From a virus (taxonomy: Monodnaviria > Loebvirae > Hofneiviricota > Faserviricetes > Tubulavirales > Inoviridae): a stretch of DNA of 6,634 nucleotides. The notes beneath the pieces were generated by a model, which had not been told where the DNA came from, ran no database searches, and saw only the letters and a program-made list of their open reading frames with translations. The position numbers and the translations under genes were made by a program. How positions within the stretch are numbered: position 1 is the first letter of the stretch; each line of letters begins with the position of its first letter. Shown here piece by piece: positions 6,527-6,554 of this stretch. Location of the stretch: the IMG/VR virus record IMGVR_UViG_2698536379_000001; one strand, written 5' to 3'.

Positions 6527-6554
6527 GGTGCGCATAATGTATATTATGTTAAAT
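6527..6554 (+). other. dif: dif site (XerC/XerD chromosome dimer resolution site), serving as prophage attachment junction
   Basis: GGTGCGCATAA-TGTATA-TTATGTTAAAT at 6527..6554 matches the canonical E. coli dif 28-mer as recalled (11-bp XerC arm, 6-bp central region, 11-bp XerD arm), 140 bp downstream of the last phage ORF. Confidence 0.9.

What the first reader, a model, noticed from the sequence alone, without database searches (positions are those of the whole stretch)
6527..6554. Exact dif 28-mer at the prophage end: Xer-dependent integration at the chromosome dimer resolution site
The prophage ends at a sequence matching canonical E. coli dif and encodes no integrase, the signature of an integrative element exploiting host XerCD (as CTXphi and VGJphi do). 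Occupation of dif matters because the site is needed for chromosome dimer resolution, and such elements often form tandem arrays. The window starts at the repressor stop codon, so the left junction and any tandem copy are not visible.
Basis: partly seen in the sequence, partly recalled or inferred. Interest (0 to 1): 0.55.

Follow-up and report, generated by a model that had tools for sequence, protein, structure and literature searches.

The report
Known filamentous prophage sitting at dif
The window is a slightly decayed copy of the well-known CUS-1/YpfΦ filamentous prophage of E. coli and Yersinia pestis. It ends at an exact copy of the chromosome's dif site because this phage family uses the host XerCD recombinases instead of its own integrase, so the finding is correct but ordinary.

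Summary
Window 6527-6554 is the exact 28-bp E. coli dif site, GGTGCGCATAA-TGTATA-TTATGTTAAAT, and it lies exactly at the prophage/chromosome boundary.

- **Identity.** The window is 99.5-99.6% identical to CUS-1 (E. coli NU14) and YpfΦ (Y. pestis). These are published integrase-less inoviruses known to integrate at dif and to rebuild an intact dif at their 3' end.
- **Left junction.** A near-identical relative, L002 (4 mismatches), shows the left junction 1753 bp left of the window. It consists of the dif XerC arm, an 11-nt spacer and a XerD-like arm, followed by a second dif-like site in inverted orientation. The (+) strand of this region folds into a forked hairpin (-30.7 kcal/mol, z = -7.6). 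That is the CTXφ-type single-strand attP, not the VGJφ type.
- **No integrase.** None lies between the junctions.
- **Empty site.** A reconstructed empty site is contiguous in 3182 of 5426 complete E. coli genomes.
- **Tandem copies.** They exist in NU14 and Y. pestis.

The only new details are minor. This copy has a 1217-bp deletion that removes the secretin domain, so it is probably defective and is inherited clonally. Its source contig also hints at a partial duplication just left of the window.

Novelty: already known. Interest: low.

The parts
6527..6554 (+). attR, an exact E. coli dif. XerC arm 6527-6537 (GGTGCGCATAA), central region 6538-6543 (TGTATA), XerD arm 6544-6554 (TTATGTTAAAT).
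   Evidence: The sequence is identical to K-12 dif in PMC2731167.
6527..6541 (+). The 15 nt shared by phage attP and dif (XerC arm plus TGTA). The crossover must lie in this interval. The phage ends here and the chromosome begins.
   Evidence: The NU14 junctions and the end of homology to the inter-copy junction at 6541. Host-specific XerC arms at attL in other hosts place the exchange to the right of arm position 6.
6555..6634 (.). Chromosomal flank to the right of dif, on the side of the ydeQRST-type fimbrial operon.
   Evidence: The empty-site composite is contiguous in 3182 genomes. Annotation comes from L001 and L002.
1..447 (-). HTH repressor of 148 aa, the RstR/YPO2273 equivalent.
   Evidence: Pfam HTH_3, E = 1.6e-9. 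PMC4266046.
619..1671 (+). Gene II-type rolling-circle replication initiator.
   Evidence: Pfam Phage_CRI 1.2e-73 and G2P_X_C 3.6e-34. It is 57.8% identical at the amino-acid level to I2-2 gene II.
1683..2000 (+). ssDNA-binding protein (G5P).
   Evidence: Pfam Putative_G5P, E = 1.2e-52.
2289..2522 (+). Major coat protein (weak match).
   Evidence: Pfam Phage_Coat_B, E = 0.0016, which is below the gathering score. The position in the gene order agrees.
2587..4299 (+). Large virion or adsorption protein (pIII position; puvA of CUS-1). RefSeq annotates the start at window 2737.
   Evidence: Gene order. There is no Pfam hit. PMC4266046 describes puvA.
4312..4599 (+). DUF2523 protein in the pVI position.
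   Evidence: Pfam DUF2523, E = 1e-20.
4603..5628 (+). Zot/pI assembly ATPase.
   Evidence: Pfam Zot, E = 2.2e-26.
5628..6056 (+). Truncated pIV/GspD secretin gene, 142 aa instead of 414 aa. The junction of the 1217-bp deletion lies at 6034|6035. The Secretin domain (aa 243-372 of the full protein) and the following 82-aa ORF are lost.
   Evidence: The junction is absent from 5426 complete genomes but present on 24 or more draft or metagenome contigs.
6189..6386 (+). Small ORF of unknown function next to attR, in the position of YPO2281 of YpfΦ.
   Evidence: Annotated as a 65-aa hypothetical protein in L001 and NU14. No family hit. PMC4266046.

Best explanation
The window is the right-hand 6.5 kb of a CUS-1/YpfΦ-family filamentous prophage (an inovirus with no integrase) plus 80-93 bp of chromosome. 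The 28-mer is attR, the functional chromosomal dif rebuilt by integration.

The proposed mechanism is CTXφ-type:
1. In the packaged (+) ssDNA, a 33-nt dif-like site and an inverted 27-nt dif-like site about 35 nt downstream pair to form a forked hairpin. The 33-nt site is GGTGCGCATAA-TGTACGACTCG-TTATGTTGAAA and the inverted site reads GGTTCGCACAA-TGACG-TTATGCTAAAG.
2. The hairpin presents a XerC arm and a XerD arm.
3. XerC exchanges one pair of strands with dif at the boundary between the XerC arm and the central region. The shared TGTA stabilises this exchange.
4. The lack of homology on the XerD side prevents the second exchange.
5. Replication converts the pseudo-Holliday junction into a prophage.

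The product has a non-functional attL, made of the host XerC arm plus the phage remainder (11-bp spacer in duplex form), and an exact dif at attR, made of the phage XerC arm plus the host central region and XerD arm. Dimer resolution is therefore preserved and further copies can stack in tandem.

Shown here: the junction sequences, the empty site, the hairpin, the orientation and the absence of an integrase. Inferred from CTXφ: XerC-only catalysis, the ssDNA substrate and irreversibility.

This particular copy has lost the secretin domain and is probably a defective, vertically inherited remnant.
For: - **Site.** Exact dif at 6527-6554.
- **Identity.** 99.6% to Y. pestis YpfΦ and 99.5% to NU14 CUS-1 over window 1-6034 and 6035-6541.
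- **Gene set.** An inovirus gene set without a recombinase. The full context in L001 and L002 is hipBA, attL, TIR gene, 139-aa ORF, repressor, phage genes, dif, fimbrial genes.
- **Empty site.** Contiguous in 3182 of 5426 genomes.
- **Three junction types in NU14.** attL, an inter-copy junction equal to attP, and attR equal to exact dif.
- **Hairpin.** The (+) strand folds at -30.7 kcal/mol against -12.6 ± 2.4 for shuffles, z = -7.6.
- **Conservation.** The two-inverted-site layout is conserved in Yersinia, Brenneria, Photorhabdus and many viral contigs. Of 35 predicted pairs, 7 keep pairing through changes on both sides.
- **Natural markers.** The XerC arm at attL follows the host: GGTGCACATAA in Y. 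pestis, AGTGCGCATAA in L042, and Sodalis-like AGTACGCATAA in L025. Inter-copy junctions and attR keep the phage arm GGTGCGCATAA. This is as expected for exchange at the XerC cleavage site.
- **Orientation.** The coding (+) strand of the phage is the same strand as the dif top strand, as required for (+) ssDNA insertion.
- **Literature.** YpfΦ rebuilds intact dif at its 3' end and has inverted XerC/XerD sites (PMC4266046). CUS-1φ and YpfφΦ are listed as CTX-type (PMC4246890, PMC3089051). CTXφ attP1 and attP2 have 12- and 7-nt spacers (PMC3089051), against 11 and 5 nt here.
Against: - No experiment here shows XerC-only catalysis or a single-stranded substrate. The papers I read describe this for CUS-1/YpfΦ only as inferred from sequence.
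- The (-) strand folds almost as well (-29.4 kcal/mol, z = -6.9), so folding alone does not pick the strand. The strand assignment rests on prophage orientation and on the analogy with CTXφ.
- Covariation support is thin because most relatives are nearly identical. The central stem could also serve as a transcription terminator.
- The left junction of the window's own genome is not on its contig. L003 starts 130 bp left of the window, so the left junction is read from a relative with 4 mismatches.
- PMC4266046 reports that superinfecting YpfΦ prefers to integrate between resident copies. The simple CTX model does not predict this.
Confidence: 0.85

Rival explanations
1. VGJφ-type integration. 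The double-stranded replicative form recombines with dif through its single 33-bp dif-like site. XerC catalyses the exchange, and the prophage can excise by the reverse reaction.
For: The phage site shares the XerC arm plus TGTA with dif, and the XerD side diverges. The same rule governs VGJφ (PMC4246890 table). The prophage is flanked by two directly repeated sites that share the XerC arm. PMC4266046 reports dynamic copy number and extrachromosomal forms for YpfΦ.
Against: In duplex form the XerC-like and XerD-like arms are 11 bp apart, against 6 bp in dif. A second inverted site at a fixed distance of about 35 nt is conserved across genera and gives a very stable hairpin. The VGJ type does not need such a site. 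The reviews I read place CUS-1φ and Ypfφ in the CTX class (PMC4246890).
Confidence: 0.08
2. The 28-mer is just the ordinary chromosomal dif. The phage arrived next to it by another route, such as an integrase outside the window, homologous recombination or transposition.
For: The window alone cannot exclude this, because its left end is inside the prophage.
Against: There is no recombinase between or beside the junctions in L001, L002 or NU14. The junctions fall exactly at the XerC arm in E. coli, Yersinia, Brenneria-type and other hosts. The empty site is restored precisely by removing the element.
Confidence: 0.02
3. TLCφ/GGI-type integration. XerD performs the first strand exchange on a duplex site, and XerC completes the reaction.
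For: It is another known way in which integrase-less elements use dif (PMC4246890).
Against: Identity between the phage site and dif is on the XerC side (arm plus TGTA) and is lost on the XerD side of the central region. Host-specific polymorphisms are retained only in the XerC arm of attL. Both points argue for a XerC-side exchange.
Confidence: 0.02

Closest known systems
CUS-1 (E. coli O18:K1:H7) and YpfΦ/CUS-2 (Yersinia pestis) filamentous prophages
   Same: The window is 99.5-99.6% identical at the nucleotide level over its whole phage part. The gene order is the same. The attP is the same, with a 33-nt site and an inverted 27-nt site. The insertion point is the same, between hipA and dif, with exact dif rebuilt at the 3' end (PMC4266046).
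   Different: The window copy has a 1217-bp deletion that removes the secretin domain and the first of the two small ORFs next to attR. In its closest relatives the cargo next to attL is a TIR-domain gene rather than CUS-1 orf1/orf1a or YPO2271/2272.
CTXφ of Vibrio cholerae (CTX-type IMEX)
   Same: It has no integrase. It carries two inverted dif-like sites next to a divergent repressor gene, and these fold in the (+) ssDNA. The XerC-side homology rule applies. One functional dif is regenerated at the 3' end, and tandem arrays form (PMC3089051).
   Different: The phage lineage is different; the Zot protein has only distant matches. The spacers are 11/5 nt against 12/7 nt, and the inter-site distance is about 35 nt against about 90 nt. 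The full-length phage encodes its own secretin, so on that basis a host secretin would not be needed for export. No mechanism has been shown experimentally for this family in the papers I read.
UPΦ phages / Lineavirus I2-2 and IKe
   Same: These are enterobacterial inoviruses. UPΦ also integrates at dif and has variable accessory genes at both ends. Genes II and V are homologous (PMC7307601). The replication protein is 57.8% identical to I2-2 gene II.
   Different: The rest of the genome is unrelated. There is no megablast match in the phage collection. I2-2 and IKe do not integrate (PMC7307601).
VGJφ-type IMEX
   Same: It uses host XerCD at dif with a XerC-first exchange.
   Different: VGJφ uses a single duplex attP and integrates reversibly (PMC4246890). 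Here the duplex spacer is 11 bp and a conserved inverted partner site is present.

Membership tests
CUS-1/YpfΦ filamentous prophage | Near-identical backbone sequence and gene order (repressor, gII, gV, coat, pIII-like, pVI-like, Zot, secretin, two small ORFs) | tested here: met
   99.5-99.6% nucleotide identity to NU14 and Y. pestis copies.
CUS-1/YpfΦ filamentous prophage | Complete morphogenesis and secretion module, including the secretin shown to be essential for YpfΦ particle production (PMC4266046) | tested here: not met
   The secretin is truncated to 142 of 414 aa and the Secretin domain is lost. This is a deletion derivative of a member, not a different family.
CUS-1/YpfΦ filamentous prophage | Integrated at chromosomal dif, with intact dif at the 3' end | tested here: met
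CTX-type IMEX | No element-encoded recombinase | tested here: met
   All ORFs between attL and attR in L001 and L002 were scanned or annotated, and none is a recombinase.
CTX-type IMEX | Two dif-like sites in inverted orientation that fold into a hairpin attP on the (+) strand | tested here: met
   The sites are at L001 6248-6280 (+) and 6315-6341 (-). The fold gives -30.7 kcal/mol, z = -7.6. The layout is conserved across relatives. It lies outside the window itself.
CTX-type IMEX | Homology with dif limited to the XerC side of the central region, with the crossover at the XerC cleavage site | tested here: met
   The shared sequence is GGTGCGCATAA plus TGTA only. The XerC arm is host-specific at attL, and the phage arm is found at attR and inter-copy junctions.
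CTX-type IMEX | Prophage orientation consistent with insertion of the (+) strand into the dif top strand | tested here: met
   The phage coding strand and the dif top strand are both the window + strand.
CTX-type IMEX | XerC-only catalysis on an ssDNA substrate, completion by replication, and irreversibility | not testable with these tools
   This needs genetics or biochemistry. It is only inferred for this family in PMC3089051 and PMC4266046.
VGJ-type IMEX | A single duplex attP with dif-like arm spacing | tested here: not met
   The duplex spacer is 11 bp, and a conserved inverted second site is present.
TLC-type IMEX | XerD-first exchange, with homology on the XerD side | tested here: not met
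   Identity with dif is confined to the XerC side.

The most novel reading that the evidence does not exclude
The secretin-less copy locked next to dif may not be mere debris. Combined with the apparent duplication of the repressor, intergenic region and 5' end of rep just left of the window, it could persist as an RS1-like immunity or satellite element. Such an element might be mobilised by a full-length CUS/Ypf helper, or might export through a host secretin.
Probability: 0.06. Interest if true: 0.4.

Novelty: already known. Interest (0 to 1): 0.15.

Why it matters
Xer-exploiting phages show how a virus can lysogenise without an integrase by using an essential host system. CTXφ does this when it converts V. 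cholerae to toxigenicity. For E. coli and Y. pestis the case is already in the literature, so this window adds only a new deletion derivative. It also gives some tidy comparative support for the exchange point, because the host-specific XerC arm is retained at attL while the phage arm overwrites the host arm at dif. Nothing here changes current understanding.

Tried and rejected
- **Phage collection.** Megablast of the window against the phage collection found nothing. CUS-1/YpfΦ appear not to be deposited there as stand-alone records. Protein searches gave only I2-2 gene II (57.8%) and distant Zot hits.
- **Deletion junction.** I searched for the deletion junction and for the odd 5' head of the source contig in 5426 complete E. 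coli genomes. Neither junction is contiguous in any of them, so no closed genome of the source lineage was available.
- **Original Y. pestis dif.** I searched the literature for GGTGCACATAA to confirm the unoccupied Y. pestis dif. Only irrelevant hits came back. The Proteobacteria dif table lists the post-integration CO92 site.
- **Other checks in the window.** Rfam found nothing. Repeat finding in the window showed no second dif-like site and no meaningful repeat.
- **TIR cargo.** I checked a paper on E. coli TIR defence proteins for any mention of a filamentous-phage context and found none.
- **Rejected mechanisms.** I considered VGJ-type, TLC-type and integrase-mediated integration and rejected them. 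The reasons are given under the rival explanations.

Full report
**1. The observation**

Window 6527-6554 reads GGTGCGCATAATGTATATTATGTTAAAT. It is the only match to E. coli dif in the window even with 3 mismatches allowed, and none of 200 shuffles produced a match. The sequence equals the E. coli K-12 dif listed in PMC2731167. The window does begin at the stop codon of a 148-aa HTH protein encoded on the minus strand at 1-447.

**2. What the window is**

Pfam assigns most of the plus-strand ORFs to an inovirus gene set:
- G2P replication initiator at 619-1671 (E = 1e-73)
- G5P ssDNA-binding protein at 1683-2000
- a weak coat-protein B match at 2289-2522
- DUF2523, in the pVI position, at 4312-4599
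- Zot/pI at 4603-5628

Two further ORFs have no family hit:
- a 570-aa ORF in the pIII position at 2587-4299
- a 142-aa ORF at 5628-6056

No recombinase is present. Megablast against 5426 complete E. coli genomes finds at least 80% of the window in 99 genomes. The window is 99.6% identical to the YpfΦ prophage of Y. pestis NCTC5923 (L013). It is 99.5% identical to the two CUS-1-type copies in E. coli NU14 (L012).

The literature describes CUS-1 and YpfΦ as 99% identical integrase-less filamentous prophages integrated at dif. It also reports an intact dif rebuilt at the 3' end and inverted XerC/XerD binding sites in the encapsidated genome (PMC4266046). Reviews list them as relatives of CTXφ in its integration class (PMC4246890; PMC3089051; PMC3442271).

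**3. The boundary and the left junction**

The window's source is almost certainly NCBI GCA_001277435.1, contig CYAE01000005.1 (L003). That contig is 100% identical over all 6634 bases but starts only 130 bp left of the window. A Logan contig with 4 mismatches (L002) and the closed genome of O55:H7 DEC5E (L001) give the full context, in this order:
- hipB and hipA
- attL
- a TIR-domain gene (minus strand)
- a 139-aa ORF (minus strand)
- the repressor and the phage genes
- dif
- fimbrial genes

attL lies 1753 bp left of the window start. It reads GGTGCGCATAA TGTACGACTCG TTATGTTGAAA. A GC-rich stem-loop follows, and then an inverted dif-like site that reads GGTTCGCACAA TGACG TTATGCTAAAG on the other strand.

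I joined the left flank of L002 to dif and the window's right flank. The resulting 358-nt empty site occurs as one contiguous piece in 3182 of 5426 genomes, at 99.2-99.4% identity in O55:H7 strains. The element is therefore an insertion exactly at dif.

NU14 carries two tandem copies and shows all three junction types:
- attL: chromosome, then the XerC arm, then the phage remainder.
- Inter-copy junction: the phage end '...ccttaccatt', then GGTGCGCATAA, then TGTACGACTCG.... This is the attP of the circular genome.
- attR: the phage end, then exact dif, then a different B2-type chromosomal flank.

This explains why hits H18-H30 stop at exactly 6554. Homology between the window and inter-copy junctions stops at 6541. 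The phage/chromosome crossover therefore lies within 6527-6541, which is the XerC arm plus TGTA.

**4. Mechanism**

The attP region of the (+) strand, which is the coding strand and by analogy with other inoviruses the packaged one, folds into a long hairpin. In it the two XerC-like arms pair, the two XerD-like arms pair, and the central region is bulged. The first two central-region nucleotides next to the XerC arm are paired. The free energy is -30.7 kcal/mol against -12.6 ± 2.4 for shuffles, z = -7.6. The complementary strand folds nearly as well, so folding alone does not choose the strand.

The strand assignment comes from orientation. The phage coding strand is the same strand as the dif top strand, as required if the (+) circle is spliced into the top strand at the XerC cleavage site.

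The architecture parallels CTXφ, where attP1 and attP2 have 12- and 7-nt spacers (PMC3089051). The spacers here are 11 and 5 nt.

The two-site layout recurs in relatives from Yersinia, a Brenneria circular contig, Photorhabdus, a host with Pectobacterium/Brenneria-type dif (L040) and many IMG/VR contigs. A consensus fold of seven distinct versions keeps 35 pairs. Seven of these pairs show changes on both sides that preserve pairing. That support is modest, because most sequences are nearly identical.

Natural polymorphisms are more telling. The XerC arm of attL follows the host:
- GGTGCACATAA in Y. pestis
- AGTGCGCATAA in L024, L028 and L042
- AGTACGCATAA in L025, which matches the Sodalis-type dif arm in PMC2731167

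Inter-copy junctions and attR instead carry the phage arm GGTGCGCATAA (L013 at 9735, L042 at 8385). This is the outcome expected from a single exchange at the boundary between the XerC arm and the central region. It implies that integration overwrites the host's XerC arm.

XerC-only catalysis, the ssDNA substrate and irreversibility are inferred from CTXφ. They were not tested here.

**5. Rivals**

- **VGJ-type duplex integration** is disfavoured by the 11-bp duplex spacer and by the conserved inverted partner site.
- **TLC-type XerD-first exchange** is disfavoured because identity with dif is only on the XerC side.
- **Integration by an unseen integrase** is excluded by the complete contexts in L001, L002 and NU14.

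**6. What is particular to this copy**

Every complete-genome hit aligns in two pieces. The window lacks 1217 bp present in all of them. The junction is at 6034|6035 with no microhomology. It cuts the 414-aa secretin to 142 aa, removes its Pfam Secretin domain (aa 243-372) and removes the next 82-aa ORF. Disruption of the YpfΦ secretin gene abolishes particle production (PMC4266046), so this prophage is probably defective.

The junction is in none of the 5426 complete genomes. However, the exact 142-aa product is encoded on at least 24 draft, SRA-derived or metagenome contigs. Their right-hand chromosomal flanks are at least 99.95% identical to one another and to O55:H7 DEC5E. That indicates one clonal lineage and vertical inheritance. 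This fits a prophage that cannot excise once its attP hairpin is masked in duplex DNA.

**7. Verdict**

The finding is real and its interpretation is right. It re-identifies a published phage family and a published integration strategy, so it is already known and of low interest.

Noticed in passing
window 6034|6035 (ORF 5628-6056): There is a 1217-bp deletion relative to all 99 complete-genome relatives. It truncates the pIV/GspD secretin to 142 aa and removes the next 82-aa ORF. There is no microhomology at the junction. The deletion is found on 24 or more draft or metagenome contigs of one clonal lineage.
   Followed up: yes
L003 1-130 (immediately left of window position 1): The first 89 nt of the source contig duplicate window 624-712 (the 5' end of the rep gene). 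They are fused to the 43 nt that normally precede the repressor stop. Other assemblies of this lineage break at window 635 or 683, which is consistent with a graph branch at 712|713. This suggests a duplicated module of about 755 bp (repressor, intergenic region, start of rep) or a remnant of a tandem copy. No closed genome has this junction.
   Followed up: partly
L001 6350-7901; L002 2723-4274 (left of the window): The cargo next to attL in the closest relatives is a 368-aa TIR-domain protein plus a 139-aa ORF. The TIR protein matches Pfam CAP12-PCTIR_TIR (E = 3.6e-20) and the PADLOC TIR effector, PDC-S35 and PycTIR models. This may be an anti-phage defence gene carried by an inovirus. I found no mention of it in the papers checked.
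   Followed up: partly
L012, L013, L021, L024, L025, L028 (between the inverted attP site and the repressor): This is a variable cargo slot. In E. coli-type copies a conserved protein of about 140 aa is followed by different genes: the 368-aa TIR protein, a 369-aa protein, 264+88 aa, or 155+123 aa. YpfΦ instead has 135+87 aa.
   Followed up: partly
L013 993 vs 9735; L042 141 vs 8385; L025 318: The XerC arm at attL is host-specific, whereas attR and inter-copy junctions carry the phage arm. Integration therefore appears to replace the XerC arm of the host's dif with the phage version.
   Followed up: partly
window 1937-1944 and 4826-4833: Both KOPS motifs (GGGNAGGG) in the window are on the + strand, pointing toward dif. 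None is on the - strand. The expected count is 0.28, and 6 of 200 shuffles gave 2 or more. The orientation is compatible with FtsK reaching dif across the prophage, but the statistics are weak.
   Followed up: no
window 6398-6634 (-): A 78-aa ORF that runs straight across dif is called as a gene in several assemblies. It spans the phage/chromosome junction and is probably spurious.
   Followed up: no
L014 (Klebsiella spallanzanii) 4976-14155: Rearranged and partly duplicated copies of the same backbone lie next to an exact dif. The left site is different (AGTGCGCATAATGTATGACGCTATGTTACAA) and has no obvious inverted partner. This may be a different attP module or an array of several elements.
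   Followed up: no
L015 and L017: Contigs labelled as Aerococcus and Candidatus Nanosynbacter MAGs carry this enterobacterial phage (rep 96% and 86% identical). L017 also has E. coli-type dif and flank. These contigs are likely mis-binned. L017 also has extra dif-like sites upstream, at 2336 and 4811.
   Followed up: no
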